Source of the DNA: Candidatus Nomurabacteria bacterium RIFCSPLOWO2_01_FULL_42_20
GTDB taxonomy: Bacteria; Patescibacteriota; Minisyncoccia; Phycocordibacterales; CAZVEC01
Direction of reading: 5' to 3'
Length of the DNA stretch: 51,148 bases
Assembly (NCBI GenBank): GCA_001785965.1
Contig: MFVF01000030.1
Coordinates: forward strand, 1-51,148
Shown here piece by piece: positions 211 to 51,115 of the stretch. The notes beneath the pieces are model-generated. The model saw only the letters and a list, made by a program, of their open reading frames with translations, ran no database searches and was not told the DNA's origin. The translations under genes and the position numbers were made by a program. Every line of letters begins with the position of its first letter. The stretch's first letter is position 1.

Positions 211-287
211 GAACGCTGTCCTGATATCGATTACGATATATTTAGTTCGCTCGTTCATAATGAAAATAAAGCCCTAATTTTTTGCGT

Positions 288-11426: not shown

Positions 11427-11527
11427 AATATTTTGTTTTTTAAAGAAGTTAAGAACTTTACTTTAAACCATTTTTTGCTAAAAGTCAAAACCATCGTTCG
11501 GGGGCCTTTAAAAAAGGGAAAAATTCT

Positions 11528-11604
11528 TTTTTGGGGGTGTCTCGCAGGCCGACGGGCCGAGAGGCAGCGCTCTGCCAGCAGGCAGAGACAGCGACCCCCA
11601 AAAA
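11528..11604. repeat. Intergenic GC-rich imperfect palindrome
   Basis: TTTTTGGGGGT (11528-11538) pairs with ACCCCCAAAAA (11594-11604). Inner hairpin GGCAG-cgct-CTGCC (11563-11576). GC-rich island in an AT-rich spacer. Confidence 0.7.
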
Positions 11605-11668
11605 GAGTTTTTCTCTTTTTTAACAGAAAAATTTCAAACTACTAATAAAATGATATATGGATTACCAT

Positions 11669-15385: not shown

Positions 15386-15823
15386 AGAGAAATTATTAAA
15401 AAAAGATTGAGCTCAAAATGATAAGGGGGACAAAATCTGTCCTCCTTTTTTCTTTAAGCTCTGCCACTGTAGCAAGAACCATTCTTGCTATACCAAAATT
15501 TAAGCCGATCCTCTTTTGGAGAGATCGGCTTGGGTTTAATACTTTTTTATTTATATTGTGATCCGAACAAAAGTTCGGAAAGAACAGTCGAGGGCTTGCG
15601 GTATAACGATGAGTATTACTGACCGCAAGCCGGCAAAAATACATTTCTACAGCATGCATTGCTCTGCTCAAGCCATCGTCTCACCTACAATGACTAGGGA
15701 GTTTTATTCAAGGCCTTGGTTTTTGTAGCTTTCTAGCTACAAAAGTAGTTTTTATCTTGCCAAAGCAAACTCAAGTGCAAGTGTAGCATACCAGTAATTT
15801 TTGTCAAGTCTTTGTATGGTGGG

Positions 15824-15868
15824 TTCAACTTGCAAAAAGGCGAATTTGTGATTATTGTCGCGCCGTAG
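15824..15868 (+). pseudogene. Orphan rsmI-like 3' end (relic 1)
   Basis: Reads FNLQKGEFVIIVAP-stop. KGEFVIIV matches the conserved RsmI C-terminal KGE-x-V-hydrophobic motif. Same strand as rsmI and about 0.9 kb downstream of it. Confidence 0.4.
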
Positions 15869-15908
15869 CTGTAGCAAGAACCGTTCTTGCTACACTTGCT
15901 ACACTGAA

Positions 15909-15968
15909 TTCTTTAATAAAAATAAGGAGAAAGTGCGGGGTGAGTTTGTGGTGATAGCTAGCGCCTAG
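15909..15968 (+). pseudogene. Orphan rsmI-like 3' end (relic 2)
   Basis: Reads FFNKNKEKVRGEFVVIASA-stop, against DKVRGEFTVLVSS-stop in the intact gene. The similarity is at protein level, with many synonymous differences. Confidence 0.4.
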
Positions 15969-15978
15969 CATCTAGCTC

Positions 15979-16030
15979 CAACCCCCTCCTTTCTCCTCCC
16001 CCTTAATAAGGGGGAGGATGGTGGGGGTGT
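15979..16030. repeat. Intergenic C/G-tract palindrome
   Basis: TCCTCCCCCTTA (15994-16005) pairs with TAAGGGGGAGGA (16007-16018). Outer CCCCC (15982-15986) pairs with GGGGG (16023-16027). Confidence 0.7.
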
Positions 16031-16068
16031 TAGTTGCATTAGCTGGTAGCTGGTGTAAAATATGAGTC

Positions 16069-20842: not shown

Positions 20843-21364
20843 GTGAAAATAATTTTATTAAAAGACGTGCCGAAATTGGGACGAAAATACGATATCAAAG
20901 AAGCCAGCGACGGCTACGCTTTGAATTTTTTGATTCCCAGAAAATTAGCTGAAAGAGCCACTCCAGAAAAAATCGCCCAAATTGATAAATTAAAAAAAGA
21001 AATGCTGATTGCCAAAGAAGCGGGGGAGCAGGAGCTTTTGAAGGCCTTGGGGGCCATCAAAGGTCTAGAATTGATCATGAAAGCCAAAGTTTCCGACCTG
21101 CCTGCTCGCCTCGCTGACTCGCCTCGCTTCGCGGGCGAAGCGGGAGCTCCGGCGAAGCGGGCCGGCAAGGCAGGAAAAGGCCACCTTTTCTCGAGCATCA
21201 AAAAAGAAGATATAATAGAAAAAATGAAAAAAGATTATAACATAAGTCTCTCCGAGGATTCCATAAAAATGGAAAGCATAAAAGAAACAGGGGAGTTTGA
21301 AATACCGGTCGAAGTCAGCGGCAAAAAATCATCCTTCAAATTGATTGTTGAAAAGATTGATTAA
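20843..21364 (+). CDS. rplI: 50S ribosomal protein L9 (GTG start)
   Basis: MKIILLKDVPKLGRKYDIKEASDGYALNFLIPRKLA, with GHLFSSIKKEDI in the C-domain. Contains a 26-codon GC-rich insert. Confidence 0.9.
   Translation: MKIILLKDVPKLGRKYDIKEASDGYALNFLIPRKLAERATPEKIAQIDKLKKEMLIAKEAGEQELLKALGAIKGLELIMKAKVSDLPARLADSPRFAGEAGAPAKRAGKAGKGHLFSSIKKEDIIEKMKKDYNISLSEDSIKMESIKETGEFEIPVEVSGKKSSFKLIVEKID
21097..21174 (+). repeat. 78-nt GC-rich palindromic element inserted in frame in rplI
   Basis: CCTGCC (21097-21102) pairs with GGCAGG (21169-21174). Internal hairpin CGCTTCG-cggg-CGAAGCG (21125-21142). Encodes roughly DLPARLADSPRFAGEAGAPAKRAGKA between KAKVS and GKGHLF. Confidence 0.7.
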
Positions 21365-25494: not shown

Positions 25495-26007
25495 ATGAAA
25501 AATAAAAACACAATCATTACAGTTATCGCACTGATAATAATTTTCGGCGGGCTTGTTTATTTCGCCAAGCCGAGCCAGAAACCAAGCGAAAAAGCAAACG
25601 CCGTTTCAGATGAACCTTCTTCTGCGGCGGCTCTTACTGCCGCTGAAACATTCTATAATTTCGGAGAAGTTTCCATGGCGAACGGCAATGTGAATCATGA
25701 ATTCAAGGTTAAAAATAATGCGGCCGGCCCGATTAACGTTGCTAAAATTTACACGTCCTGCATGTGCACAACCGCTTCAATTACAGTAGGAGAGAAAACG
25801 AAAGGACCTTTTGGCATGCCCGGGCACGGCTTGGTGCCAAAAGCCAATATGGAAATTCCGGCTGGAGCGGAAGCTGTAATCACAGCTATATTTGACCCGA
25901 ACGCCCACGGTCCGGCAGGCGTAGGCCGGATTGAAAGGGAAATATATCTTGAAGACGACGCTGGCGCTCAAACAATACTCAAGTTTGAGGCGACGGTCAC
26001 CCCGTAG
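25495..26007 (+). CDS. DUF1573-like membrane-anchored protein
   Basis: N-terminal TM segment; YNFGEVSMANGNVNHEFKVKNNAAGPINVAKIYTSCMCTT matches the DUF1573 pattern. Confidence 0.6.
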   Translation: MKNKNTIITVIALIIIFGGLVYFAKPSQKPSEKANAVSDEPSSAAALTAAETFYNFGEVSMANGNVNHEFKVKNNAAGPINVAKIYTSCMCTTASITVGEKTKGPFGMPGHGLVPKANMEIPAGAEAVITAIFDPNAHGPAGVGRIEREIYLEDDAGAQTILKFEATVTP

Positions 26008-26011
26008 TAAG

Positions 26012-26046
26012 ACGCGGACTTTCGCTGACTAAACGCGGACTTTCGC
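26012..26046 (+). promoter_or_regulatory. Direct repeat ACGCGGACTTTCGC x2, 21 nt apart, upstream of the ccdA-like gene
   Basis: Copies at 26012-26025 and 26033-26046 are identical, between the stop at 26007 and the start at 26057. Confidence 0.4.
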
Positions 26047-26056
26047 AGAAAAAAAT

Positions 26057-26911
26057 ATGGAAAATATGGAAAATGAAAATAAAAATAATTGTTGCCAAAA
26101 CGGAGAACAAAAAGAAAATAATGTGAAAAAATCAAATAAAATATGGTGGCTTATTATTGCCGGCTTGATTGTCGTCGGACTCGCGATTCTTCTTAAATAT
26201 TCCACGGGTTCGTCGCAGGTGATCTGGGATATAAGCGATGGGGGAAAGTGGCTTCTGCCGCTTGTCGGAATTACGGCTTTAGTTGACAGCATCAATCCCT
26301 GCGCCTTCTCAATTTTGCTTTTAACCATCGCCTTTCTCCTGTCGATAGGACGAATGAGATCAAGTATTCTGAAAATCGGAGGAATATATATCTTCGGAGT
26401 TTTCACCGCCTATATTCTGATCGGCCTCGGCATTCTGGGAGCGCTTCACATATTCAACACTCCGCATTTCATGGGCAAATTGGGCGCCGGACTTTTAATT
26501 GCTCTCGGCATTATAAGCTTGATCCAAGAAATATTTCCCAATTCTCCGATCAAGCTTAAAATTCCAAAATGGAGCCACGGCTTGCTCGCGCGCGTAATGG
26601 AAAAAGCTTCTATTCCAGCCGCTTTTGTTCTCGGCATTTTAGTCGGCCTCTGCGAATTTCCTTGCACTGGCGGACCGTACTTGATGATTCTCGGACTTCT
26701 TCACGACAATGTCACCTATATTAAAGGCGTCGGCTATTTGTTCATCTACAATCTTATCTTCATCTTGCCGCTCGTCATCATTCTGGCGATTGCCAGCCGA
26801 AAGTACTTGCTTGATAAAGTTGAAGCGTGGCAGAATAAAGAAAAAAGATTGATGCGTCTTGGCGGCGGAATCGCCATGATTATTCTTGGCATAATTATCT
26901 TCTTGTTATAA
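26057..26911 (+). CDS. ccdA: CcdA/DsbD-type thiol:disulfide electron-transfer membrane protein
   Basis: Polytopic protein; SINPCAFSILL and LCEFPCTGGPYL are cysteine-bearing TM motifs. Confidence 0.65.
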   Translation: MENMENENKNNCCQNGEQKENNVKKSNKIWWLIIAGLIVVGLAILLKYSTGSSQVIWDISDGGKWLLPLVGITALVDSINPCAFSILLLTIAFLLSIGRMRSSILKIGGIYIFGVFTAYILIGLGILGALHIFNTPHFMGKLGAGLLIALGIISLIQEIFPNSPIKLKIPKWSHGLLARVMEKASIPAAFVLGILVGLCEFPCTGGPYLMILGLLHDNVTYIKGVGYLFIYNLIFILPLVIILAIASRKYLLDKVEAWQNKEKRLMRLGGGIAMIILGIIIFLL

Positions 26912-30197: not shown

Positions 30198-33100
30198 ATG
30201 AGTATTTCTAAAACATCTTCAATTGCCGATATTTTAAAGAAAAAAACATCTCTTTCTTCTAATCCCGATATTGCCCTTAAATATTTAAAGAAATTTAAAT
30301 TAAAAGCCCGCAATGTCAGAGCGCTCTATGGCGAGCTGATGGCGCTTTGTTCGGGCCTTCGGCATATCACTCATGAGATTGAATCAATTATTGACAACTT
30401 TTTCGCGGTAGAAGCCGCTATTTTTGAAATAGAAAATCATATTAAAAAAAGCGATTTCAAAAATCTTCCGCTTATTGCCGCCGAAAAAAATAAATATGCC
30501 CCTCGCTTGCACTTCATCCTTTCCGGGCTTCTTAAAGAAAATAGTCAGATTATTGATAGAGAAATATTAGAATCTTTTCTTGTCTCGTACCAAAAGCATA
30601 GCCCGCTTTCAATTAGAGAATTATATGCCATTCCTCTTTTACTCCAAGTCGTTCTTGTTGAACATTTTGGAAAACTTATAGAGCAATCCATAAAATTCCT
30701 TAGAGAATACCGCGAGGCTGATATTACATATCAAAACATAAAAGATCAGGTCAATAAAGCATCATTCAGCGAATTTTCAAAAATTACTTCCGATCTTGGA
30801 TCAAAATACCCGCTTATTCCGCTTTCTTTCGGACTTCATCTCTACCAGAAACTTTCCCAAGAAGGCTCTGTCATGAGGCCGGTTATCAAATGGATAAAGC
30901 TTAATTTAGACAAACAGGGGATTAATCTAAAAAATCTTGGAGAAATAGAAAGCAGATTAAAAAGCGAAGATTTCAATACAATATCGCATATTATCGAATC
31001 GCTTCATTGGATAGCTCAAACTCGCTGGGATGATATTGTGCAGGAAATAAATGTTGTTGATACCATACTTTCAAGAGATCCGGCTGGAATATATTCAAAA
31101 ATGGATATTGAAAGCGCCATGGAGTACCGAAAAGCGATTGTGCGCATTGCTGAAAGAGCGGCTATTCATGAAGCGGAAGTTGCAAAAATTGCCGTAAGAT
31201 TGGCCTCCTCTAATGATGCATCTTTAAGCATGGCTAAAAAGCATGTGGGGTATTATCTTGTGGATAAAGGGATAATTGAACTTGAAAAGAAGATCGGGTA
31301 CCGGCTTTCTTGGAAAGACGTCTTGTATCGCTTTATTGTAAAAAACAATCAGGAATTTTATTTTTCTTCAGCTTTTGGTATTAATATTGTTCTAACTCTC
31401 GGCTTGGGCTTTATTTTTTGGAATTACAATGCTTCACTTTTATCCGCTTCTCTGTTTATGGTTGTTGTTTTTTTATTGAACACTGAAATTACGCTTAATA
31501 TTTTGAATGTTATTATTACTCGTTTCTTGCCGGTAAGAAAGCTTCCGAAGCTTGATCTTTTAAGTGTCGTAAGCGAAAAGCAAAGAACTTTTGTCGTTGT
31601 TCCTTCAATGTTCCACGGTGTTGAAACCGTGCATAATCTTATAAGAAAGCTTGAGGTTTGTTATCTAGGCAATCCTCAGGAAAATATTTTATACGCGCTT
31701 CTGCTTGACTTTAAAGATGCGTCAAGCGAGACGATGCCTGAAGATGACGCCCTTATAAAAGCAACTCAGGAAGGAGTAGATAATCTAAACGCCCGCTATT
31801 CCCAAAATGGCCAAAAATTTTTTATCTTGTACCGAAAACGCATCTGGAATGAAAAAGAGGGCGCTTATATGGGCTGGGAGAGAAAAAGAGGAAAGCTTCG
31901 CGAATTTAATATGCTTCTTAGGGGAGCGCGGGAGACATCATACATGAATGGTGATGTTCTTAGAAATATTGGCCATATTTCTTATGTAATTACTCTAGAT
32001 GAAGACACAGAATTGCCAAAAGACGCCGCCTCTGGGCTTATCGGAACCATTGACCACCCTCTTAATAGGCCCGTGCTTTCTTTATCCGGAGACAGAGTTG
32101 AAAGAGGTTATGGAATTATACAGCCGAGGATAGGCATACGGTTGGCGCTAGCTTCAAAATCAATTTTTTCAAGGCTTTTTTCATCTGTTTCCGGTATTGA
32201 TTCATATTCCAGCGCCGTATCGGATGTCTATTATGATCTTTTTGATAACAGTCTTTTTTTTGGAAAAGGAATATATGATATTGATGCCGTAGAAAAAGTG
32301 ATGGATGGAAAAATTCCAGATAATCTTATTTTATCGCATGATTTGCTCGAGGGACTCTACACTAGAGTAGGTTTTGCCAGCACTATTGTTTTATTTGACG
32401 GTTTTCCAAATTTTTACCACGAATTTATGATTCGCCTGGATCGATGGATCAGGGGCGATTGGCAGATTATTGGCTGGATAAAAAGAAAATATCATCCGAA
32501 GGGAGCCAGAGAGCCAACTCTTCATTTTTCTTTCATTGACAGATGGAAAATTATTGACAACCTGCGCAGAAGCCTCATACCGGTATTTTCAATAATGATC
32601 ATAGCTTATGGAATATTTTCCGCTATGCCGCTAGGGCAGATAAGCATATACGCGGTTTTTGTTTTCGGCGCTCCTTTTTTAGCCGCTCTAGCCAGCGATC
32701 TTTTCTCACTTAAAAAGGTGCCTTTTTCTGTAAGATTTTATGATACATTAAGGCAAATAAAATTGACATTTCTGCATATAATTTTGCGCGCCGCCATCAT
32801 TCTGCACCAGGCAATTGTTTCAATCACGGCGATTTTCAGGGCTATCATTAATTTGATAATAAAGAAAAATCTTCTTAGATGGCATAGTTTCTCCGATGTT
32901 AGCAAAAAATTGAGCGGAAAATTGCTTGGGTATTATCAAACAATGTGGACAACGCAATTTGTATCAATTTTTTTAGCCATCTTAGCCTATTTTTTCGCTC
33001 CGATCAATAATTTTTTGTATTTTTGGCTGATTTTTTGGTTATTGTCTCCCTTAGTCGGGTATTTTATCAGCTTGCCTCGGAATAAAAAGAAAATTCTTAA

Positions 33101-36100
33101 TCCTAAGGATACAAGAATGCTGCGATCCATTGCTTATAGGACATCACATTTTTTTACTGATTTTTCACATAAAGAAAACAATTGGCTGGCCCAAGATAAT
33201 TATCAGGAATATCCTAAAATTATAGGGATTTCACATCCTGCAACTTCTCCAACAAATATAGGAATGCTTTTTACCTCGCTTTTTTCTTCGTATGAATTCG
33301 GATTTATACCTCTTGATCATTATATAGATAAAACCCGCAGGGCTTTCGCGAGCGTTTCAAAACTTGATCGTTTTAAGGGCCATCTTTATAATTGGTATGA
33401 TATTACAAAATTGCAGTCCCTTCACCCGAAATACGTATCAAGCATAGATAGCGCAAATTTTGTCGTGGCTCTCATTACTGTGCGCCAAGGACTCAAATCC
33501 ATTGCCCAAAAACCTCTTGTGAGTAGCAGTGTGATTCGGGGGGTAGAAGATGCGCTTTATGTCTTAGATGAAGAGGTTGAACGCGTGATGAATAGAAATT
33601 CGTTTTCCAAAATTTCCCGAAAAATATTGCGGGCAATACGCCTCAAAGTCAAAGTGGTTTATAAAATGGTCAATACTTTCAATGAGCCTGAAACAATTTC
33701 TGAAGCGTATTTGTTTCTTTCCAAGGTTTACGAACATATAGGCCGCATAGAAAAGTCTATTACCAGCCTTAAAGCGCATACCCATTCAAGCGAACTTAGC
33801 TTTCTGTTTGCATATGGCGAAAGATTGATGAATCTTGTTGAAACTCATCTTAGGTTTATAAGATATATTTTCCCTCACTCCACGCCACTGGATACGGCAA
33901 TACGCTCATATGTTTTCAGGGATATTTATTTGTTTGCGGTGTACAAAGATTTTATAAAGTGTATTCAAAAAATCCCAACTTTTTATGAACTTGCTACTTC
34001 ATATTTAGATCAGGCAGAATCTTTGAATTTCAGAAAAGCAATTATATCTTCACATCTGGCCCCCGATACAAAAAAATATATTTTGTCGTGGTATGACATT
34101 ACAGTAGCTGATATACGTCGCGCCCAATCACGGGCTAGAGAATTTCTTTCTGATATTGAATATTGTGAAAATGAATGCGCTAGATTTATTGATGAGCCGG
34201 ATTTTACGTTCTTTTACAATAAAGAGCGGGGACTTTTTCATATAGGATACAATGCGGCTTTTGGGAAAATTGACAGTGCTACGTATAATTTCTTAGCTTC
34301 AGAATCAAATTCTATTTCATTTGTTTCAATACTCAAAAATCAAATTTCTTCAAAAAACTGGTTTTATTTGGGACGCAAGTTTATACGATCAGGCCAAGGA
34401 ATTGCCCTGGTATCATGGGGCGGTTCGCTTTTTGAATATTTGACTCCTCTTCTTTTCTTCAAAACCCACCCGGAAAGTCTGCTGGGAAAAACAGCTTTGA
34501 CGGCTATCCGCACTCACCAAAGCGATGCTCGAAGAGAGGGCACGCCCTGGGGCATGGGCGAATCCGCCTATTATGCTTTTGACTCCGTGAAGCATTATCA
34601 GTATCAAGTTTTTGGAAGCGCCAAACTTGGTCTGAAGCGCGGCCTTTCTGATCATCATGTAATTGCTCCTTACACCAGTATTTTGGCGCTTTCTGTTGCC
34701 CTGCGCAAAGCAGTCGACAATATTAAAAATTTAATTTCTTTGGGCGCGAAAGGGAATTATGGCTTGTATGATGCCATTGATTATATGGATGAAAGGCGAG
34801 TAAGAATTTCCGAACCCCTGCCAATAAAGATATATTATGCCCACCATCAAGGTTTTGTTATGCTTGGCCTCCACAATATTCTCCTCAAAAATACGATTCA
34901 GGAATATTTTCACAATGATCCCCGAGTTGAAGCGCTCGAAATTCTTCTTGAAGAAAAAATGCCGACAAGCATAGACGCGCGGTTCTTGTCAAAGCCAGTA
35001 AGAATGTCTCTGGCGGTCGCTTCTACAAGCAGAGATACCGGCTTTGAAAGTAAAAGATATATTCCCGCCAAGATCCGCATTCCTCGATATGCTCTTATAT
35101 CAAATGGTTCTTATTCCATAGGAATCAGTAATTCCGGCGCCGGATGGTCTAATTATAAAGGTGTTTCCTTAACCCGGTCGAGACACGACGGTATCATAGA
35201 AGAATATGGCTCATATATTTTCGTTAAGGATGAAAAGACCGGCATGGTCTGGTCTCCAACAATTCATCCGCTCTCGCGAGAGGCCCAAAAGCAAAAAATT
35301 ATTTTTTTTGAGAATAAAGCCGAATTTTTTTCCTCCATGGGCAATATTGCTTCCCGGCTGGAAGTAACAGTCGATCCGCAAAATCCTGTCGAGGTGAGGC
35401 AGTTGACCATGACAAATAATGGAAGTGAAAGAGTTAAGCTCCAAGTAGCGAGTTACGGGGAAGTGTCGCTTGCTCTCAATCTGCAGGATGTCCAGCATCC
35501 AAAATATCATAAGCTTTTGGTGGCATCAGAATTTCTAGAGGAATACGATACTCTTATATATTCGCGCCCTCATCCGGAAGATAGATTGAAAAAAATTTAT
35601 TTTTCCCACACCCTTGTTCAGGGGGTGTTTGAAAAAGCGCCAATATTTCCCTGTGTGGAAAGAGAAAAGTTTATTGGCCAGTATGGGTCATTATCAGAGC
35701 CTATCATTTTTAACTCGAATATAACTGATTCAGGCGTGAAAGAATATTCCCTTGACCCCATATTTTCCTTGCGCCACACTATCGATCTTAAAGCCGGGGA
35801 ATCAGTTCATTTTTCTTTTGTAAATTGCGCGAGTGAGAGCAGGGAAGAACTCATAAGGCTGATTAAGCAATATAAAAAACCAAGGATGCTGGCGAATCTT
35901 TTTGCTCGCGCGGAAAAGGAAAGCGCTATGACGACTAAAAAATTAAACATCACTCAGGAAATGGCCGTCGTTTATCAGGAACTTGCGAGCGTGGTGCTGG
36001 GCGGAAAGATGCAAACTACAGTGTCTCATGCGCCTGAAACGCGCCTTCCTTACATTCATTTTTTATGGCACCATGGAATTTCCGGAAATAATCCTCTTGT

Positions 36101-38927
36101 AATGATAGCCATAAAAGACACTGAAGATCTTCAAATGATCCAATATGCCTTGTCATGCCATGCTTATTGGAAACACAAGGGCTTGAATATTGATATTGTT
36201 ATTTTTAATCAAGAACCCGCGAGTTATATAAAGTTTTTAGATGATGAAATAGACTTTCTTATCCGCCAAAAACGCATAGCGGAGGCCGATGGCAAGAAAA
36301 GTGCCGTATATCATGTTAAGTCCGATTTGATGACAAACGAAGAAAGAAAGGCGCTTCTCTTTGCCGCTAAAGTCATAATCGACAGTAAGACCGGCAGTTT
36401 TAAAAAGCAGGTTTCAAACTTCCTCTTTTCAAAAAATTTAAAATTTCCGGAAAAACTTTCAGCCCTTGCTCGTCATTCTAAAATTTCACCAAAAACAGCA
36501 TTAAGGGGGGCGCTGCCAAAAAATTTGCTTTTTACCAATAGTTTTGGCGGATTTGATGAGATAAATTCAGAATACGCAATGCATATTTCCAGCAATAATA
36601 TGCCGCCGGCTCCATGGACAAATATTATTTCAAATGAAAATTTTGGAACTATTATTACTGAGGCCGGTTCAGCGAATACATGGGCCGTCGATAGTTATGA
36701 TAATCGCATTACTTCATGGCAGAATGATTCTCTCGTATTCAAAAGTCCTGAAATTGTTTATATTCGCGATAAGGAAACGGGCGAAATATGGAATCCGACT
36801 CCGTTTCCGGTGCCTACGGACGAACCATTTATTGTCCGCCATGGAAAAGGCTACACCATATTTGAACATAATCATTCTGGCATTGAACACTCATTTGAGA
36901 TTTTTGTGCCCCGATCTGAAAAAATAAAGATATCTCGTCTTAAAATTAAAAATAAAACAAAGATAAAAAGAAATCTATCCGTCACTTCGTATTTGGAAAC
37001 GGTAATGGGTATTAGTATTGACCCTAGTAATAGTCGGGATTTTTTGCAGTTTTCAAAAAACCGTGCTACCGGCGCTCTCTTGATTAGAAACATGTTTAGA
37101 AATAATTTTCACAATAGCATTGCTTTTGCAGATATAAATGGCGGCTCATATAAGGTTTCCACCAATAGGGAGGAATTTTTGGGCCGTTATGGCTCTTATA
37201 GTTCCCCTGAAGCTCTTAGTCGAGTTTCTCTTTCAGATGAGATTACCCATGGCTCCGAAGGGTGCGCGGTATTAGAGAGTGTTATCAAACTCGATCCGGA
37301 TGAGGAAAAAGAAATCATTATCATTCTTGGCGAAACCGAAAGCGAATCAGAAGTTGAGCGAATGATTATCAAGTATCGTTCAATAAAGAATGTTAAAGCA
37401 GAGCGAGAAAAAATTCGTTCATTTTGGTCATCCGTTTCATCAAAAATTCAGATTGAATCTCCCGACAAAAAGCTTGATATTATGTTTAATCAAAATCTTT
37501 TATATCAAGTGCTGTCGTCTCGCTTGATGGCAAAAACCGGATTTGACCAGCCGGGCGGCGCCTATGGTTTCAGAGACCAGCTTCAAGATATTATTTCTTT
37601 GGTTTGGTCGAATCCAGGGCGTGTCCGATCATTTATTCTGAAAGCCGCGATGCATCAATTTAAAGAAGGAGACGCGATGAATTGGTGGCACGACCATAAT
37701 AATTTTGGAATTCGAAACGTGCTTTCCGACCATCAGTTATGGCTTGTATATGCGATTACTGAATATATTTCTATCACAGGAGACAAAGATATTCTTGATG
37801 AATTAATCCCATATCTTGAAGGACACGATGTTAATTTCACTTATCAAAGGGAATGGGCGGGCATCCCGGATCTTTCTAATGAAAAAGACACTCTGTATGA
37901 GCACTCTATCAGAGCGCTTGAAAAAAGCCTGGTTTTTGGAAAACACAATCTGCCTCTTATAGGAATGAGTGACTGGAATGACGGTCTTTCAAGAGTGGGG
38001 ATTTTGGGCAAAGGTGAAAGTGTTTGGTTAGGGTGGTTTCTTATTTATCTTCTGGAAAAAATTATTCCTTACGTGGAAGAAAGAAATGACACTCTGCGTC
38101 TTTCTCGCTACAAGCTCGCAATAGACAATCTTGTGAAAGCCCTTGATAAAAACGCCTGGGATGGGAGGTGGTATAAAAGAGCTTTCCTCGACAATGGTGT
38201 CGCTCTTGGCTCGCACAAACTGAAGGAATTTAAAATAGATTCTCTTTCGCAATCTTGGTCAGTCTTATCAAAAAAAGGCAATCCCGAAAAAGTTTCAAAA
38301 GCTATTCATTCAGGGCTCTCGTATCTGTATAATGGAAAAAGCATGAAGATTATCGCGCCGCCGCTCAAAATGTCTTTATTTGATCCGGGTTATATAAAAG
38401 ATTATCCGCCCGGTGTTCGCGAAAACGGCTCGCAGTATAATCACGCGGCGCTTTTTATGGCTCAAGCCCTTTTTATTCTGGGCGAATCAGATACCGCGAA
38501 AAAGATTATTGATTTAGTAAATCCGATTACCCACTCTGATTCCCATAAAAAAGCTTTAGTCTATCGTGCCCAACCAAATGTCGTCGCTTCAGATATTTAT
38601 ACCAATCCTTCATTTGAAGGCAGGGGCGGATGGACTTGGTATACGGGTTCCGCGGCTACAATGTATAAAACTATTATTCAGTTTATGTTTGGTTTTAATA
38701 AAAAAGGGGATTCTCTTTCTTTCAGCCCTTCTTTACCTTCAGACTGGACTTCGTGCGCCATCACATATCATTATGGAAATTCTTTGTATCATATAAATAT
38801 TGAAAAGCCGGCCGGCATCCACAATACTGTTATGGAAGTGTATGAAAATAACGTAAAAATAAAAGATAAAACAATCAAGCTCGTTGATGACAGTCAAGAA
38901 CATTTTATTAAAGTTGTTCTATCCTAG
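30198..38927 (+). CDS. cgs: Cyclic beta-1,2-glucan synthase-like giant protein (GT84 domain, TM segments, GH94 phosphorylase-like C-terminus)
   Basis: 2909-aa uninterrupted ORF. GT-region motifs ITLDEDTELPKDA, ILSHDLLEG and RWIRGDWQ, flanked by multiple TM helices. C-terminal GH94-like motifs FRDQLQD, GMSDWNDGL and ENGSQYNHAA. Confidence 0.8.
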   Translation: MSISKTSSIADILKKKTSLSSNPDIALKYLKKFKLKARNVRALYGELMALCSGLRHITHEIESIIDNFFAVEAAIFEIENHIKKSDFKNLPLIAAEKNKYAPRLHFILSGLLKENSQIIDREILESFLVSYQKHSPLSIRELYAIPLLLQVVLVEHFGKLIEQSIKFLREYREADITYQNIKDQVNKASFSEFSKITSDLGSKYPLIPLSFGLHLYQKLSQEGSVMRPVIKWIKLNLDKQGINLKNLGEIESRLKSEDFNTISHIIESLHWIAQTRWDDIVQEINVVDTILSRDPAGIYSKMDIESAMEYRKAIVRIAERAAIHEAEVAKIAVRLASSNDASLSMAKKHVGYYLVDKGIIELEKKIGYRLSWKDVLYRFIVKNNQEFYFSSAFGINIVLTLGLGFIFWNYNASLLSASLFMVVVFLLNTEITLNILNVIITRFLPVRKLPKLDLLSVVSEKQRTFVVVPSMFHGVETVHNLIRKLEVCYLGNPQENILYALLLDFKDASSETMPEDDALIKATQEGVDNLNARYSQNGQKFFILYRKRIWNEKEGAYMGWERKRGKLREFNMLLRGARETSYMNGDVLRNIGHISYVITLDEDTELPKDAASGLIGTIDHPLNRPVLSLSGDRVERGYGIIQPRIGIRLALASKSIFSRLFSSVSGIDSYSSAVSDVYYDLFDNSLFFGKGIYDIDAVEKVMDGKIPDNLILSHDLLEGLYTRVGFASTIVLFDGFPNFYHEFMIRLDRWIRGDWQIIGWIKRKYHPKGAREPTLHFSFIDRWKIIDNLRRSLIPVFSIMIIAYGIFSAMPLGQISIYAVFVFGAPFLAALASDLFSLKKVPFSVRFYDTLRQIKLTFLHIILRAAIILHQAIVSITAIFRAIINLIIKKNLLRWHSFSDVSKKLSGKLLGYYQTMWTTQFVSIFLAILAYFFAPINNFLYFWLIFWLLSPLVGYFISLPRNKKKILNPKDTRMLRSIAYRTSHFFTDFSHKENNWLAQDNYQEYPKIIGISHPATSPTNIGMLFTSLFSSYEFGFIPLDHYIDKTRRAFASVSKLDRFKGHLYNWYDITKLQSLHPKYVSSIDSANFVVALITVRQGLKSIAQKPLVSSSVIRGVEDALYVLDEEVERVMNRNSFSKISRKILRAIRLKVKVVYKMVNTFNEPETISEAYLFLSKVYEHIGRIEKSITSLKAHTHSSELSFLFAYGERLMNLVETHLRFIRYIFPHSTPLDTAIRSYVFRDIYLFAVYKDFIKCIQKIPTFYELATSYLDQAESLNFRKAIISSHLAPDTKKYILSWYDITVADIRRAQSRAREFLSDIEYCENECARFIDEPDFTFFYNKERGLFHIGYNAAFGKIDSATYNFLASESNSISFVSILKNQISSKNWFYLGRKFIRSGQGIALVSWGGSLFEYLTPLLFFKTHPESLLGKTALTAIRTHQSDARREGTPWGMGESAYYAFDSVKHYQYQVFGSAKLGLKRGLSDHHVIAPYTSILALSVALRKAVDNIKNLISLGAKGNYGLYDAIDYMDERRVRISEPLPIKIYYAHHQGFVMLGLHNILLKNTIQEYFHNDPRVEALEILLEEKMPTSIDARFLSKPVRMSLAVASTSRDTGFESKRYIPAKIRIPRYALISNGSYSIGISNSGAGWSNYKGVSLTRSRHDGIIEEYGSYIFVKDEKTGMVWSPTIHPLSREAQKQKIIFFENKAEFFSSMGNIASRLEVTVDPQNPVEVRQLTMTNNGSERVKLQVASYGEVSLALNLQDVQHPKYHKLLVASEFLEEYDTLIYSRPHPEDRLKKIYFSHTLVQGVFEKAPIFPCVEREKFIGQYGSLSEPIIFNSNITDSGVKEYSLDPIFSLRHTIDLKAGESVHFSFVNCASESREELIRLIKQYKKPRMLANLFARAEKESAMTTKKLNITQEMAVVYQELASVVLGGKMQTTVSHAPETRLPYIHFLWHHGISGNNPLVMIAIKDTEDLQMIQYALSCHAYWKHKGLNIDIVIFNQEPASYIKFLDDEIDFLIRQKRIAEADGKKSAVYHVKSDLMTNEERKALLFAAKVIIDSKTGSFKKQVSNFLFSKNLKFPEKLSALARHSKISPKTALRGALPKNLLFTNSFGGFDEINSEYAMHISSNNMPPAPWTNIISNENFGTIITEAGSANTWAVDSYDNRITSWQNDSLVFKSPEIVYIRDKETGEIWNPTPFPVPTDEPFIVRHGKGYTIFEHNHSGIEHSFEIFVPRSEKIKISRLKIKNKTKIKRNLSVTSYLETVMGISIDPSNSRDFLQFSKNRATGALLIRNMFRNNFHNSIAFADINGGSYKVSTNREEFLGRYGSYSSPEALSRVSLSDEITHGSEGCAVLESVIKLDPDEEKEIIIILGETESESEVERMIIKYRSIKNVKAEREKIRSFWSSVSSKIQIESPDKKLDIMFNQNLLYQVLSSRLMAKTGFDQPGGAYGFRDQLQDIISLVWSNPGRVRSFILKAAMHQFKEGDAMNWWHDHNNFGIRNVLSDHQLWLVYAITEYISITGDKDILDELIPYLEGHDVNFTYQREWAGIPDLSNEKDTLYEHSIRALEKSLVFGKHNLPLIGMSDWNDGLSRVGILGKGESVWLGWFLIYLLEKIIPYVEERNDTLRLSRYKLAIDNLVKALDKNAWDGRWYKRAFLDNGVALGSHKLKEFKIDSLSQSWSVLSKKGNPEKVSKAIHSGLSYLYNGKSMKIIAPPLKMSLFDPGYIKDYPPGVRENGSQYNHAALFMAQALFILGESDTAKKIIDLVNPITHSDSHKKALVYRAQPNVVASDIYTNPSFEGRGGWTWYTGSAATMYKTIIQFMFGFNKKGDSLSFSPSLPSDWTSCAITYHYGNSLYHINIEKPAGIHNTVMEVYENNVKIKDKTIKLVDDSQEHFIKVVLS

Positions 38928-42810: not shown

Positions 42811-43158
42811 TTAATTCAAGCCTTTTTTAATTCTCAAAAGAATTTCTTTTAACTCTGGTAAGTCCTTTTTTATAGTATCCCAAACAACCTTTTCATCAAT
42901 GCCCCAATACTCATGCACTAACATATTCCGCATGTCCATAATTTCTTTCCATTCGACTTTAGGATATTTCTCACGAACTTGTTCATAAATATTCTTGATT
43001 GCTTCCCCGATAATAATAAAATTCATCATCACTGCCTCATAAGTTTTTTTATCGTTTTTTAATTCGCCACCATCTTTATGAACTAAAACATAGCTATTAA
43101 TTTTATCTATAGCGTCAAAAATGTCTTCAATGTATAAATTTACATCTCTTTCGATCAT
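42811..43158 (-). CDS. hepT: HepT (DUF86) toxin of a type VII TA pair
   Basis: RNMLVHEYWGID contains the R-x4-H-x-Y motif. 115 aa. The antitoxin gene's 3' end overlaps this gene's start by 4 nt. Confidence 0.85.
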   Translation of the reverse strand: MIERDVNLYIEDIFDAIDKINSYVLVHKDGGELKNDKKTYEAVMMNFIIIGEAIKNIYEQVREKYPKVEWKEIMDMRNMLVHEYWGIDEKVVWDTIKKDLPELKEILLRIKKGLN

Positions 43159-43451
43159 ACAATCTCTAGCTGACTTAAAATTTTATCGCGAATAAGTGGC
43201 TTAATTCCACTTTTAGTAACAAGATCAACTTCTCGTCCTAATAAATCTTTTAAATAAAATTTAAGACGGGCAAACTCAAAAAGACCTACTGGAACTTTGT
43301 GACTTAATTCAACAGCAATATCAATGTCGCTATCCGCGCCATGTTCGTCTCGGACAACTGAACCGAAAACGCCTATCTCTTCCACGCCGTAAGTTTCCTT
43401 AAGATAATCTTTCTTTTGAGCGATTTTTTCTTTGATTTCATTTAGATTCAT
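43155..43451 (-). CDS. mntA: MntA nucleotidyltransferase antitoxin
   Basis: GVFGSVVRDEHGADSDIDIAV (G-S-x10-D-x-D), 98 aa. Confidence 0.85.
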   Translation of the reverse strand: MNLNEIKEKIAQKKDYLKETYGVEEIGVFGSVVRDEHGADSDIDIAVELSHKVPVGLFEFARLKFYLKDLLGREVDLVTKSGIKPLIRDKILSQLEIV

Positions 43452-43703: not shown

Positions 43704-43985
43704 ATGCATGCGCATCGCGATTCTAAGTATAAAAAACAACTCATCAGGCGGCTTTCCATCGCTTCCGGGCAGATTAAGGGGCTTATGAAGATGATTGAGG
43801 AAGACAAATACTGCATTGATATCTTGCATCAGTCGCTTGCCGTCAAGCAGGCTCTTTCGGGTTGTGAAGATTTGATTTTGGAAAATCATCTCTCCACTCA
43901 CGTCATTGAGCAGATAAAATCAGGAAAGGAATCAAAATCAACCAAAGAAATTTTGGATATTTATAAGTTGTCAAAAAGAAAATAA
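43704..43985 (+). CDS. csoR: CsoR/RcnR family metal-sensing repressor
   Basis: IRRLSIASGQIKGLMKMIEEDKYCIDILHQSLAVKQAL..C.. is the DUF156 pattern with Cys/His/Cys ligand positions. Confidence 0.85.
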   Translation: MHAHRDSKYKKQLIRRLSIASGQIKGLMKMIEEDKYCIDILHQSLAVKQALSGCEDLILENHLSTHVIEQIKSGKESKSTKEILDIYKLSKRK

Positions 43986-48667: not shown

Positions 48668-51115
48668 ATGGCTAATAAAACAACAAAATCGCAGTTTCCG
48701 GTTATAGGTATGCATTGTGCCAGTTGCGCTTTGACGATCGAGCGGGCGCTCAAGAAAGTGCCGGGAGTGAAAGGCGCCAGCGTGAATTTCGCGACCGAAA
48801 AAGCGACTGTTGAATCCGAAGAGGAGATTGATTCAAAAGTTCTCAAAAAAGCCGTAGCAGATACTGGCTACAATCTTATCGTCCAATCAGACGGGGTTTC
48901 ATCAGAGGGAGTTCATACGGAACATAAAATGGAGGGAATGGAAGAGAAGCCGGCGGACATGCATGACCATCACCGGATGCTCAAAGAAGCGGAAATAAAA
49001 AAACTGCGGAATAAATTCGTAATCGGCGCCATATTGTCTGTCTTAGTTATCCTCTTAAGTTTCCCGGATTATTTCAAAGTTTTTAATCTTGAATCATTCT
49101 TGCCAACTTCCTGGCGTTTTATTCTGCTTTTTATTCTCACTCTGCCTGTTGAATTCTGGGTCGGCTACCAATTTTGGCGCGGAGCCTGGTTTGGGCTCAA
49201 GGGTTTCCGGGCAAATATGGATACGCTCGTCGCCTTAGGCACCGGCACCGCTTTCATATTCAGTACAATTGTTACGATTTTAGAAATCGTCGCGCCAGTC
49301 GACGGGCTTGATGTTTATTTTGACGTGGCGGCTGTTGTTACCACTCTCGTTATTTTAGGCAAATTCCTGGAAGCGCGGGCTAAAGGCGCCGCTTCGGAGG
49401 CGATTAAAAAACTTCTGCGCCTTCAGGCGAAAGTCGCTCATATTGTCCATGAGGGAGGCCACATAATGGATATTTCCGTTGAAGAAATAAAGGCCGGCGA
49501 CATTCTTTTGGTTAAGCCTGGAGAAAAAGTTCCGACCGACGGGCTCATTATAGAAGGGGAGTCGTCTCTGGACGAATCAATGGTTACCGGCGAGTCCATG
49601 CCGGTTGATAAAAAAGTTGGCAATGAAGTCATCGGCGCGACGATCAATAAGACCGGGGCTTTCAAAATGCGAGCGACTAAAGTTGGCAAGGACACTTTTC
49701 TTTCGCACATCATTAAACTCGTTGAAGAAGCCCAGGCTTCCAAGGCGCCGATTCAGAAATTGGCCGACCAAATCACCGGTTTTTTTGTGCCGATTGTTTT
49801 GGCTATTTCTATAATTTCATTTGTTATTTGGATTTTTGCCGGGCCGGAACCTTCTTTACGTTTTGCTTTGATCAACGCGGTGGCGGTGCTGGTTGTAGCC
49901 TGTCCTTGCGCACTTGGATTAGCTACCCCAACGGCCATCATGGTTGGCACGGGCAAAGCCGCCGAGAGGGGGATTATCATCCGCGACGCCGAGGCGCTTG
50001 AGCTGGCCGGCAAGATTGATACAGTCATTTTAGACAAAACGGGCACGCTGACCAAAGGGGAGCCAATTGTTACAGATATCAAAGCCGGGCTTCAGAAGTC
50101 AGACTTCAAGGGCAGCCCGAAGTCTGACTTCGGGGAGCCCGAAGCCCGGCTTTTGCAAATCGCCGGAAGCTTGGCCCGCCTTGATAATCATCCTCTTGAT
50201 ATCGCCGTGGCAAAAAAAGCAAGCAATGAAAAACTGCTTGAAGTGAAAAATTTCAAAAACACGCCCGGCAAAGGTATCAGTGGGGAAATTGGCGGAAAGA
50301 AATATTTTCTGGGCAATCAAAATTGGCTCTCTGAATTTAATATTTTAGTTACAGAAGAAAATAATAAAAAAGTAATAGAACTTGAACAAGGCGGCAAAAC
50401 AGTTATTTTTCTTTTTTCCCTCGGCTATAGCCTTACGGGCGAGGCCCAAGATGAAGTTTTAGGCCTAAACCAATCCAAAGAATTGGTCGGCCCTAGAGCG
50501 ACCACGCACGGGCTAGCTCGAACTTCGCACGGCGAAGTTTTAGGCCTGATTGCCTTGGCTGATGAAATAAAAGAATCGGCTTTGCTGGCCGTTCAAAAAC
50601 TCTCAAGTCTTGGTTTGGAAATTTGGCTTTTGACGGGGGACAATGAAAGAACGGCGCAAGCTGTGAGCCGTAAATTAGGCATAACGAATATTATGTCAAG
50701 AGTTATGCCGGAAAATAAATCAGAAAAGGTGAAAGAATTACAAGCAAAAGGAAAGAAAGTAGCCATGGTCGGCGACGGCATCAATGACGCGCCGGCGCTT
50801 ACGCAGGCCGATATCGGCATCGCCATCGGCACGGGAACCGATATTGCGATTGAAGCGGGGGATATTACGCTTATCTCCGGCGACCCGATGCACGTCTACG
50901 AAGCAATCAAATTAAGCCGGCAGACCTTGCGGAACATAAAACAAAACCTCTTTTGGGCTTACATATATAATATAGTTTTGATTCCAGTGGCAGGCGGCGT
51001 TCTTTGGCCGCTTTTCGGAATCTTGCTCAACCCGATCTTAGCCGGCGGAGCTATGGCCTTTAGCTCGGTTTCCGTGGTATTAAACTCATTACGTTTGAAA
51101 AGAGTAAAGTTATAA
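48668..51115 (+). CDS. copA: Copper-translocating P1B-type ATPase
   Basis: HMA domain [32 protein letters not shown]. Two extra in-frame segments are present. Confidence 0.95.
50084..50150 (+). repeat. Nested palindromic element in frame in copA (after DKTGT..VTDI)
   Basis: GCCGGGCTTC (50084-50093) pairs with GAAGCCCGGC (50141-50150). GAAGTCAGACTTC (50095-50107) pairs with GAAGTCTGACTTC (50119-50131). Confidence 0.75.
50453..50547 (+). repeat. In-frame 81-nt insertion in copA bounded by a 14-nt direct repeat
   Basis: GAAGTTTTAGGCCT occurs at 50453-50466 and again at 50534-50547, exactly 81 nt apart (27 codons). EVLGL is encoded twice. Confidence 0.7.

What the first reader, a model, noticed from the sequence alone, without database searches (positions are those of the whole stretch)
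50453..50547. An 81-nt in-frame insertion in CopA is flanked by a 14-nt direct repeat resembling a target-site duplication
GAAGTTTTAGGCCT occurs at 50453-50466 and 50534-50547, exactly 27 codons apart, so EVLGL is encoded twice (DEVLGL...[12 protein letters not shown]). The 67 nt between the copies are GC-richer and encode [22 protein letters not shown], which has no counterpart in the expected G-x-hydrophobic-GLIALAD stretch of P1B ATPases. Beyond the 14-mer the two 81-nt units share no similarity, so this looks like an insertion with duplication of its target and not a tandem duplication. A further small palindrome, GGCTATAGCC, lies just upstream at about 50422-50431.
Basis: seen in the sequence. 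Interest (0 to 1): 0.66.

Follow-up and report, generated by a model that had tools for sequence, protein, structure and literature searches.

The report
Repeat-flanked loop insertion in copper pump
A copper-export pump gene of an uncultivated groundwater bacterium carries an extra in-frame stretch of about 36 codons that includes a 14-base copy of the adjacent gene sequence and forms a floppy surface loop; it is a real but fairly ordinary one-off insertion, with no sign that a jumping element made it.

Summary
GAAGTTTTAGGCCT occurs exactly twice, at 50453-50466 and 50534-50547, 27 codons apart, inside an intact 815-aa P1B copper ATPase gene of a Patescibacteria (CPR) bacterium. None of 119 homologs has this stretch. 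The gene DNA is identical in five independent assemblies, so it is not an assembly artefact.

- The extra material is about 108 nt (36 aa, 50420-50527), not 81 nt. The first repeat copy lies inside it.
- The second copy encodes the canonical beta-strand.
- The insert has no terminal inverted repeats and no second copy anywhere I could search.
- The window encodes no transposase, integrase or Cas1.
- No empty site was found. The nearest relative is only 72% identical.
- GC content is not an outlier.

Both insert ends carry inverted copies of the adjacent target, including an 8-bp hairpin across the 3' junction (p about 0.002). I therefore favour a replication or repair template-switch error that was tolerated because it sits at a surface beta-turn (AlphaFold pLDDT below 50).

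The same gene holds a perfect nested 73-nt palindrome, and the L9 gene holds a GC-rich in-frame hairpin.

Interest is low to moderate.

The parts
48668..51115 (+). Intact copA-type P1B heavy-metal ATPase gene (815 aa) that hosts the insertion
   Evidence: ORF. Pfam HMA, E1-E2_ATPase and Hydrolase domains, and hits named 'heavy metal translocating P-type ATPase' in Patescibacteria. All invariant family columns are present, including the CPC, DKTGT, TGD and GDGxND motifs.
50420..50527 (+). Whole extra stretch (108 nt, aa 585-620, [36 protein letters not shown]) that is absent from homologs. The exact boundaries can slide by a few codons.
   Evidence: Fewer than 10% of 119 homologs have residues in these columns, and none at aa 591-618. 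CopB structure 3SKY has one residue where the window has 37. AlphaFold shows loop 585-622 between strands 578-584 and 623-631, with pLDDT below 50 at 603-619.
50453..50466 (+). Direct-repeat copy 1 (GAAGTTTTAGGCCT; EVLGL aa 596-600), lying inside the extra loop
50467..50533 (+). 67-nt unique core between the repeat copies ([22 protein letters not shown])
   Evidence: No second copy found. It does not fold better than shuffles on its own (z = 0.09). No Rfam match comes near a family threshold.
50534..50547 (+). Direct-repeat copy 2, the orthologous copy. It continues into the conserved LIALADE and forms the canonical beta-strand 623-631.
   Evidence: Collinear 13-mers with ortholog L006 resume at 50547. 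L006 reads GAAGTTCTCGGTTTGATTGCC at the same place. AlphaFold strands. Aligns to NGEVSGVIALAD of 3SKY.
50521..50539 (+). 8-bp perfect hairpin AACTTCGC-ACG-GCGAAGTT spanning the 3' junction. The left arm is an inverted copy of the target.
   Evidence: I3. Shuffle p = 0.0024.
50458..50469 (+). 12-nt palindrome TTTAGG/CCTAAA across the 5' junction. The insert begins by extending the target's own AGGCCT palindrome.
   Evidence: I7, I1. Shuffle p = 0.03.
50423..50432 (+). Small palindrome GGCTATAGCC within the upstream part of the extra stretch
   Evidence: I5.
50081..50153 (+). Second, separate in-frame oddity in the same gene: a perfect nested palindrome (outer and inner arms of 13 nt each) encoding [24 protein letters not shown]
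   Evidence: I4, I6. MFE -50.1 kcal/mol, z -7.7. It is the strongest hairpin island in the window. It falls in a variable loop and is partly absent from homologs, with low pLDDT.

Best explanation
A lineage-specific, fixed, in-frame insertion of about 108 nt sits at the tight beta-turn between the last strand of the nucleotide-binding domain (TVIFLFS) and the hinge strand ([10 protein letters not shown]) of a copper P1B ATPase. It most likely arose from a replication or repair template-switch error and not from transposition.

Proposed mechanism (inferred):
- The nascent strand left its template and copied short pieces of the adjacent sequence, once directly (the 14-mer) and in part inverted (AGGCCTAAA ... 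ACTTCGC, which is the reverse complement of GCGAAGTTTTAGGCCT split in two).
- It also copied sequence of unknown origin.
- It then resumed upstream of its departure point, which left the direct repeat.

Consequences:
- The product is a loop of about 38 residues, mostly disordered, on the protein surface.
- The second repeat copy still supplies the canonical strand and all catalytic motifs are intact, so the pump probably works and the insertion is probably neutral.
- The 14-nt repeats also make the 81-nt unit prone to precise loss by slippage.

Shown here: the insertion is real, unique and fixed; it lies in a surface loop; it lacks transposon features; and the junctions carry inverted repeats. 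Inferred: the template-switch mechanism and the neutrality.
For: - Absent from 119 of 119 homologs, and the extra stretch is longer than the 81-nt unit.
- One residue occupies this turn in solved CopB 3SKY.
- AlphaFold gives strand, low-confidence loop, strand, with the second EVLGL in the strand.
- DNA is identical in five assemblies from ENA, NCBI and JGI.
- An 8-bp hairpin spans the 3' junction (p = 0.0024) and a palindrome spans the 5' junction (p = 0.03).
- No terminal inverted repeats, no other copy, and no mobile-element genes in the window.
- The same two loops in other CPR orthologs carry insertions made by local replication errors: 7-nt tandem repeats in L010 and L008, and palindromes in L006.
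- The same gene has a nested perfect palindrome in another loop.
- The gene lies downstream of a CsoR-type repressor in a metal/redox cluster and keeps all invariant motifs.
Against: - The origin of about 85 nt of the insert (33 nt upstream of copy 1 and about 52 nt of the core) is unknown. Nothing in the 51-kb window or the related loci templates it.
- The split inverted copy does not reach significance as an alignment, and I noticed it after the fact.
- Only the junction hairpin is formally significant.
- The rest of the genome could not be searched, so other copies cannot be excluded.
- No intermediate or empty-site relative exists in the data, so one event cannot be told from two.
Confidence: 0.5

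Rival explanations
1. A small non-autonomous mobile element (MITE-like, or placed by an integrase that makes long staggered cuts, such as a casposase or Cas1-type enzyme) inserted 67 nt and duplicated 14 nt of target.
For: - An exact 14-nt direct repeat brackets unique sequence.
- Casposase integration gives duplications of 14-15 bp (PMC5137440).
- The genome does contain short GC-rich hairpin motifs that recur at unrelated sites: a 15-mer shared by the PIF1-like ORF and intergenic 95-109, and palindrome 15-mers at non-orthologous positions in two copA orthologs.
- In-frame insertion of palindromic elements is known from Rickettsia (PMC10969869).
Against: - No terminal inverted repeats.
- The core does not fold better than shuffles (z = 0.09).
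- No second copy was found in any searchable data.
- No transposase, integrase or Cas1 in the window.
- The repeat does not bound the whole extra stretch, so a further insertion of 27-33 nt must be assumed.
- No similarity to the other hairpin islands of the window.
Confidence: 0.15
2. An old tandem duplication of an 81-nt segment including EVLGL, or stepwise loop growth, followed by divergence of everything except the 14-mer.
For: - The spacing is an exact multiple of three.
- A faint match AAAGAATTGG / AAAGAATCGG lies in the same frame downstream of each copy.
- Internal tandem duplications are common in this protein family, for example the 19-aa duplication around the HP motif.
Against: - The alignment of the two units is not better than shuffles (p = 0.11 and worse).
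- Fourteen of 14 identical bases, including four synonymous third positions, is not compatible with divergence that erased the other 67 nt.
- The first copy sits in a disordered loop, where nothing would conserve it.
Confidence: 0.07
3. The 81-nt unit is removed or skipped during expression. Either ribosomes hop from the first 14-mer to the second, as in phage T4 gene 60 or mitochondrial 'byp' elements, or RNA is processed at the stem formed by the repeat-derived segments. The mature protein would then lack the 27 residues.
For: - Identical 'take-off' and 'landing' sequences lie 81 nt apart.
- The 95-nt RNA spanning both copies folds better than shuffles, with the repeat-derived segments paired (z -3.3).
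Against: - The insert is in frame and has no stop codon, so ordinary translation reads through and nothing forces a bypass.
- There is no stop codon after the take-off site.
- There is no conservation to test, because no homolog has the insert.
- About 9 extra residues upstream would remain in any case.
Confidence: 0.02
4. Assembly or sequencing artefact, or a chance repeat with no link to the insertion.
For: A 14-nt repeat within 100 nt arises in about 3% of simulated windows. EVLG with the same codons also occurs in the GluRS gene through codon usage.
Against: The DNA is identical in five assemblies from different samples and pipelines. The repeat is far shorter than the assembly k-mers. It coincides with the only large private insertion of the protein, for which my estimate of chance is about 1e-5.
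Confidence: 0.03

Closest known systems
Short-range template-switch or quasipalindrome-associated mutations, and microhomology-mediated replication restart (FoSTeS/MMBIR-type insertions)
   Same: The insertion contains direct and inverted copies of the immediately adjacent sequence. A hairpin spans the junction. A direct repeat is left where synthesis resumed upstream of the departure point. No element features are present. The general mechanism is described in PMC7954356 and PMC8604942 (found; I read the abstracts only).
   Different: Most of the inserted sequence (about 85 nt) has no identifiable local template. The process has not been described in Patescibacteria. The mechanism is inferred from one locus.
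Rickettsia palindromic elements (RPEs) and in-frame intragenic MITEs
   Same: Short sequence inserted in frame into a conserved gene at a position compatible with the protein fold, giving an extra surface peptide (PMC10969869).
   Different: RPEs are multi-copy families of about 150 bp with a palindromic structure and a conserved encoded peptide. This insert is single-copy in all the data I could search, is not palindromic as a whole, and has no terminal inverted repeats.
Casposon or Cas1-type integration (14-15-bp target duplications)
   Same: The length of the direct repeat (PMC5137440).
   Different: Casposons are large, carry terminal inverted repeats and encode a Cas1 integrase. None of these features is present here.
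[quoted passage not shown]
   Same: Relevant to the neighbouring 73-nt nested palindrome, not to the finding itself: perfect inverted repeats embedded in a translated gene (PMC6649704).
   Different: There both arms encode conserved protein regions. Here the palindrome lies in a variable surface loop and looks like an insertion.
Programmed translational bypassing (T4 gene 60; mitochondrial byp elements; named from my own knowledge)
   Same: A short insert in a coding gene, somewhat GC-richer than its surroundings, with matching sequences at its two ends.
   Different: Bypassed gaps are not readable in frame and are followed by a stop codon at the take-off site. This insert is an open, in-frame sequence.

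Membership tests
MITE / IS-derived element | Terminal inverted repeats | tested here: not met
   0-6 of 15 terminal bases are complementary for the core, both 81-nt registers and the 108/114-nt stretch.
MITE / IS-derived element | Target-site duplication that directly flanks the whole inserted sequence | tested here: inconclusive
   An exact 14-nt repeat flanks the 67 nt. The extra stretch relative to homologs is 108 nt and contains the first copy.
MITE / IS-derived element | Multiple copies in the genome | tested here: inconclusive
   No other copy in the 51-kb window, loci L001-L007, phages, plasmids or viral contigs. The rest of the genome was not available, and the large collections did not return even the source locus.
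MITE / IS-derived element | A cognate transposase in the genome | tested here: inconclusive
   None among the 40 largest of the window's 45 ORFs of 90 aa or more. The rest of the genome was not examined.
Rickettsia palindromic element-like in-frame repeat | Palindromic or hairpin-forming element | tested here: not met
   Core z = 0.09. The 146-nt region has z = -1.6. Only the version that includes both repeat copies reaches z = -3.3.
Rickettsia palindromic element-like in-frame repeat | The same peptide inserted into unrelated proteins | tested here: not met
   A peptide search of the 5.8-billion-cluster collection found no candidate. Caveat: it did not report the parent protein either, so its sensitivity is uncertain.
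Rickettsia palindromic element-like in-frame repeat | In-frame insertion at a surface position of a conserved protein | tested here: met
Tandem duplication | Adjacent units are alike along their length | tested here: not met
   Smith-Waterman against shuffles gives p of 0.1 or worse for all comparisons.
Casposon / Cas1-type integration | Terminal inverted repeats and a Cas1-family integrase | tested here: not met
   No TIRs. No Cas1 in the window. Only the repeat length fits.
Programmed translational bypass element | A coding gap that cannot be read through (stop codon or frame break after the take-off codon) | tested here: not met
   The insert is in frame and has no stop codon.
Self-splicing intron, intein or known RNA family | Match to a known RNA family, or size and motifs of an intein | tested here: not met
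   No Rfam match comes near a family threshold in 50000-50650. At 27-36 aa the insert is far below intein size (my own knowledge).
Template-switch / foldback-type insertion | Inverted and direct copies of the flanking sequence at the junctions | tested here: met
   8-bp junction hairpin, p = 0.0024. 5' junction palindrome, p = 0.03. 14-nt direct copy.
Template-switch / foldback-type insertion | All inserted sequence traceable to a nearby template | tested here: not met
   About 85 nt have no template in the window or the related loci.
P1B copper ATPase (CopA) | HMA CxxC domain and the CPC, DKTGT, HP, TGD and GDGxND motifs | tested here: met
   Pfam domains and invariant columns. Sequence.

The most novel reading that the evidence does not exclude
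The 81-nt unit, the nested 73-nt palindrome in the same gene, the GC-rich hairpin inside the L9 gene and the hairpins in the PIF1-like gene could all be footprints of one uncharacterised process in Patescibacteria. That process would place short, relatively GC-rich, hairpin-associated sequences in frame into surface loops of conserved genes, as a CPR counterpart of Rickettsia palindromic elements. The 14-nt repeat would be its target duplication, and CTTCG/CGAAG-type motifs would be a shared signature.
Probability: 0.1. Interest if true: 0.6.

Novelty: new member of a known kind. Interest (0 to 1): 0.27.

Why it matters
Taken alone, this is one more lineage-specific indel in a tolerant surface loop of a well-known enzyme, and it says little about copper transport. 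Its modest value is as a clean, well-bounded example of how coding sequence grows in reduced CPR genomes. The insertion carries direct and inverted copies of its own target, which points to replication template switching as the source of the new peptide loop. It also sits beside other in-frame hairpin insertions (CopA palindrome, L9, PIF1-like helicase) in the same 51 kb. If those prove to be related, that would indicate a genome-wide process shaping CPR proteins, and that question would be worth a dedicated study.

Tried and rejected
- **Empty-site search.** One gapped pattern covered both possible empty configurations. It gave 0 hits in genome contigs and metagenome contigs.
- **Core searches in the same collections.** These also gave 0 hits.
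- **Viral contigs.** 0 hits for the core and for the palindrome pattern.
- **Phage and plasmid blastn.** No match.
- **Peptide search with the insert.** No candidate. A chimeric query of palindrome-encoded peptides also found nothing.
- **Rfam at a permissive threshold.** Only noise.
- **Residual similarity to the flanks or the rest of the gene, both strands.** Not significant, so tandem duplication was rejected.
- **GC content as evidence of foreign origin.** Rejected: GC-rich islands are common in ORFs of this genome.
- **Intrinsic terminator or promoter at either insert.** None flagged.
- **Integron attC-like reading** (GCCTAAAC ... GTTTTAGGC against RYYYAAC / GTTRRRY, consensus recalled from my own knowledge). 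The boxes do not fit the consensus and no model was available, so I did not pursue it.
- **The 13-nt inverted match to the repeat in L001 8265-8277.** It is the same E-V-L-G codons in the GluRS gene, so it reflects codon usage and is not a donor.
- **Shared CTTCGC/GCGAAG stem between the L9 hairpin and the junction hairpin.** Post hoc and about 5% likely by chance on my rough count, so I treat it as a lead only.
Full report
**1. Observation**

The 14-mer GAAGTTTTAGGCCT is present exactly at 50453-50466 and 50534-50547. These are its only two occurrences in the window, even with two mismatches allowed. Both copies lie in frame in a single + strand ORF, 48668..51115, of 815 aa. EVLGL is therefore encoded twice, 27 codons apart, with [22 protein letters not shown] between the copies.

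In 300 first-order Markov simulations of the window, an exact direct repeat of 14 nt or more with spacing of 100 nt or less appeared in 3.3% of runs, and with spacing of 300 nt or less in 13%. Taken alone the repeat is only mildly unusual.

The 'GC-richer' claim is weak. The core is 58% GC and the gene 47%, but 14% of the 67-nt windows in the gene are at least as GC-rich. GC-rich islands are common inside ORFs of this 41% GC genome.

**2. The gene and the organism**

The ORF is a P1B heavy-metal (copper-type) ATPase with HMA, E1-E2_ATPase and Hydrolase domains. The named hits are Patescibacteria (Azambacteria, Harrisonbacteria, Niyogibacteria), and the best relatives are only 72% identical. 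All invariant family columns are present, including CPC, DKTGT, TGD and GDGxND. The gene lies downstream of a CsoR-type metal repressor (43704-43985), a DsbD-like protein, a peroxiredoxin and a YibE/F protein. It therefore looks like a working copper pump.

**3. Is it an insertion, and how large?**

In a MAFFT alignment of the 120 best proteins, none of the 119 homologs has residues at window aa 591-618. The private stretch is aa 585-620, [36 protein letters not shown], which corresponds to nt 50420-50527. The segment from GKT to the conserved AD is 20-21 residues long in 107 homologs and 57 residues here.

The nearest relatives read [17 protein letters not shown] (P0003) and FLFTEEKIIGLIALADK (P0002), each with a single copy. 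In the solved CopB ATP-binding domain 3SKY, one residue separates GKTVVFIL from NGEVSGVIALAD, whereas the window has 37.

The extra material is therefore about 108 nt, not 81. The first 14-mer copy lies inside it. The second copy is the orthologous one, because collinear matches to ortholog L006 resume at 50547. Whether the 108 nt arose in one event, or as an 81-nt event plus a 27-33-nt event, cannot be decided from these data.

**4. Not an artefact**

The identical 815-aa protein is on nine contigs. Five loci from different sources were fetched: three ENA assemblies, NCBI GCA_001785415.1 and JGI 3300002502. All are base-for-base identical to the window across the gene, and one of them differs at two upstream positions, so it is a slightly different strain. 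A 14-nt repeat is also far shorter than the assembly k-mers.

**5. Structure**

An AlphaFold2 model built with a 56-sequence alignment (mean pLDDT 82.9) gives strand 578-584 (TVIFLFS). A loop 585-622 follows, with a short helix at 593-599 and pLDDT below 50 at 603-619. Then comes strand 623-631 (EVLGLIALA). The insert is thus an extra, mostly disordered loop at what is normally a tight beta-turn, and the second EVLGL supplies the canonical strand. From general knowledge of P-type ATPases, this hairpin is at the hinge between the nucleotide-binding and phosphorylation domains.

**6. Tests of the mobile-element reading**

- *Terminal inverted repeats.* None for any plausible boundary: 0-6 of 15 bases.
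- *Other copies.* None in the window, in the related loci, in phage or plasmid collections or in viral contigs.
- *Peptide search.* It found no other protein with the insert, although the tool's failure to list the parent protein makes this a weak negative.
- *Large DNA collections.* They returned nothing even for the source locus, so they are uninformative. The empty-site pattern also returned nothing.
- *Known RNA families.* None match.
- *Mobile-element genes.* No transposase, integrase or Cas1 among the 40 ORFs scanned in the window.
- *Repeat length.* Casposase-type integration does give duplications of 14-15 bp, but it needs terminal inverted repeats and a Cas1 integrase (PMC5137440).
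- *Tandem duplication.* Not supported either, since alignments of the insert to its flanks and to the rest of the gene, on both strands, are no better than shuffles.

**7. What the junctions show**

An 8-bp perfect hairpin, AACTTCGC-ACG-GCGAAGTT (50521-50539), spans the 3' junction. Its right arm is the start of repeat copy 2 plus the two preceding bases (shuffle p = 0.0024). At the 5' junction the insert begins with AAA, which extends the target's own AGGCCT palindrome to TTTAGG/CCTAAA (p = 0.03).

Read together, AGGCCTAAA (50461-50469) and ACTTCGC (50522-50528) are the two halves of the reverse complement of GCGAAGTTTTAGGCCT, separated by 52 nt. The arrangement is therefore a direct copy, then a split inverted copy, then the original.

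This pattern is what short-range template switching or foldback priming leaves behind (general mechanism in PMC7954356 and PMC8604942, found). It is not what transposition leaves. The caveat is that I noticed the split inverted copy after the fact and it does not reach significance as an alignment. Only the junction hairpin does.

By my own calculation, the chance that a 14-mer inside a 108-nt insert matches the sequence within about 30 nt of its boundary is about 1e-5. The repeat is therefore a by-product of the insertion event, whatever the mechanism was.

**8. Context: these loops collect insertions made by local errors**

Other CPR orthologs have private insertions in the same two loops:
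- 7-nt tandem repeats: AATTTCC copies in L010 and GACAAGC x3 in L008.
- Small additions at the same turn: RTYLKDTSAQK in P0010 and NNPLASQA in P0041.
- Palindromes in L006.

In the window's own gene, 50081-50153 is a perfect nested palindrome with 13-nt outer arms and 13-nt inner arms. Its MFE is -50.1 kcal/mol (z -7.7), and it is the strongest hairpin island in the window. It encodes [24 protein letters not shown] in another low-confidence loop.

Its two 15-mers, GAAGTCAGACTTCAA and GAAGTCTGACTTCGG, recur in the L006 ortholog about 200 nt out of register. Apart from one stray 13-mer, they are the only shared 13-mers or longer that are not collinear between the two genes. KSDF occurs only in P0001 and P0003 among the 120 proteins.

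Elsewhere in the window:
- The L9 gene carries an in-frame hairpin of 68% GC (about 21090-21180, -56.7 kcal/mol). It is an insertion of about 27-29 aa relative to solved L9 structures.
- A PIF1-like helicase ORF has hairpins that share a 15-mer with intergenic 95-109.
- None of these islands shares significant sequence with the insert under review.

**9. Verdict**

It is a real, fixed, in-frame insertion and not a tandem duplication, but the evidence does not support an 81-nt element with a target-site duplication.
- My best explanation, at confidence about 0.5, is a one-off replication or repair template-switch insertion, tolerated because it lies in a surface turn.
- A small mobile element remains possible, at about 0.15, mainly because the rest of the genome could not be searched.
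- Expression-level skipping is very unlikely, because the insert reads through in frame.
- The finding is a new example of a known kind of event, and interest is low to moderate.
- The more interesting lead is the set of in-frame hairpin insertions in several conserved genes of this genome.

Noticed in passing
window 50081-50153: Perfect nested palindrome inside copA (arms 50081-50093/50141-50153 and 50095-50107/50119-50131). MFE -50.1 kcal/mol, z -7.7, the strongest hairpin island in the window. It is translated in frame as [24 protein letters not shown] in a variable, low-pLDDT loop just after the DKTGT linker.
   Followed up: partly
L006 8590-8675 (copA ortholog, 72% identical): A long hairpin (z -5.5) encoding KSKSDFNKLLKSGFGQDKLLKSDFG replaces part of the N-domain. 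It shares the 15-mers GAAGTCAGACTTCAA and GAAGTCTGACTTCGG with the window's palindrome, but about 200 nt out of register. This suggests a recurrent or mobile palindromic unit in this sub-lineage. L006 also has a small palindrome, CCAACACCGGGTGTTGG, in the loop where the window has its palindrome.
   Followed up: partly
window 21090-21180 (ribosomal protein L9 gene 20843-21364): In-frame stretch of 68% GC that folds into a long imperfect hairpin (-56.7 kcal/mol) and encodes SDLPARLADSPRFAGEAGAPAKRAGKAGK. Relative to solved L9 structures it is an insertion of about 27-29 aa. It contains direct repeats CTCGCCTCGCT x2 and GGCGAAGCGGG x2, and a central hairpin CGCTTCGC-GG-GCGAAGCG.
   Followed up: partly
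window 3498-3558 (PIF1-like helicase ORF 2139-3761) and 95-231 (intergenic, upstream of tRNA-Ile): Paired hairpins inside the helicase ORF share an exact 15-mer, CGGGATCCCGACTTC, with a strongly folding intergenic island (95-231, -75 kcal/mol, z -5.9). This looks like a small dispersed hairpin motif found in both coding and non-coding DNA.
   Followed up: partly
window 211-226, 288-360, 404-437: tRNA-Ile(GAT) at 288-360 is followed 83 nt later by a partial copy of its 3' half (321-354 repeated at 404-437). It is preceded by a 16-nt fragment of its D/anticodon region (211-226 = 308-323). This could be the remnant of an integration site or a partial tRNA duplication.
   Followed up: no
L010 about 940-1070 and L008 about 2550-2580 (copA orthologs), loop after DKTGT: Private loop insertions made of 7-nt tandem repeats (AATTTCC copies giving ISNFQFPN...ITNFQI, and GACAAGC x3 giving DKRQATS). 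The same surface loop grows by microsatellite-like slippage in other CPR lineages.
   Followed up: partly
proteins P0004-P0067 and others (alignment): Many CPR CopA homologs carry a tandem duplication of about 19 aa around the HP nucleotide-binding motif (IAASLEKFSEHPIAKAVV-AYAASLGKQSSHPLDTAV). The window's protein and its two closest relatives lack it.
   Followed up: no
window 26012-26046: The 14-mer ACGCGGACTTTCGC is repeated with 21-nt spacing, straddling the stop of ORF 25495-26007 and running into the gap before ORF 26057-26911.
   Followed up: no
window 15400-16060 and 11515-11620: Intergenic regions packed with strong hairpins, for example 15981-16060 (z about -6) and 11522-11610 (73% GC, z -6.9, flanked by A/T runs like a bidirectional terminator). 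The hairpin 'TGTAGCAAGAACC(A/G)TTCTTGCTA' occurs twice (15470 and 15869).
   Followed up: no
window 30198-38927; 42811-43451: A 2909-aa protein with GH94 (cellobiose/chitobiose phosphorylase-like) and glucoamylase domains, unusually large for a CPR genome. Also a HepT/MNT-type toxin-antitoxin pair on the minus strand.
   Followed up: no
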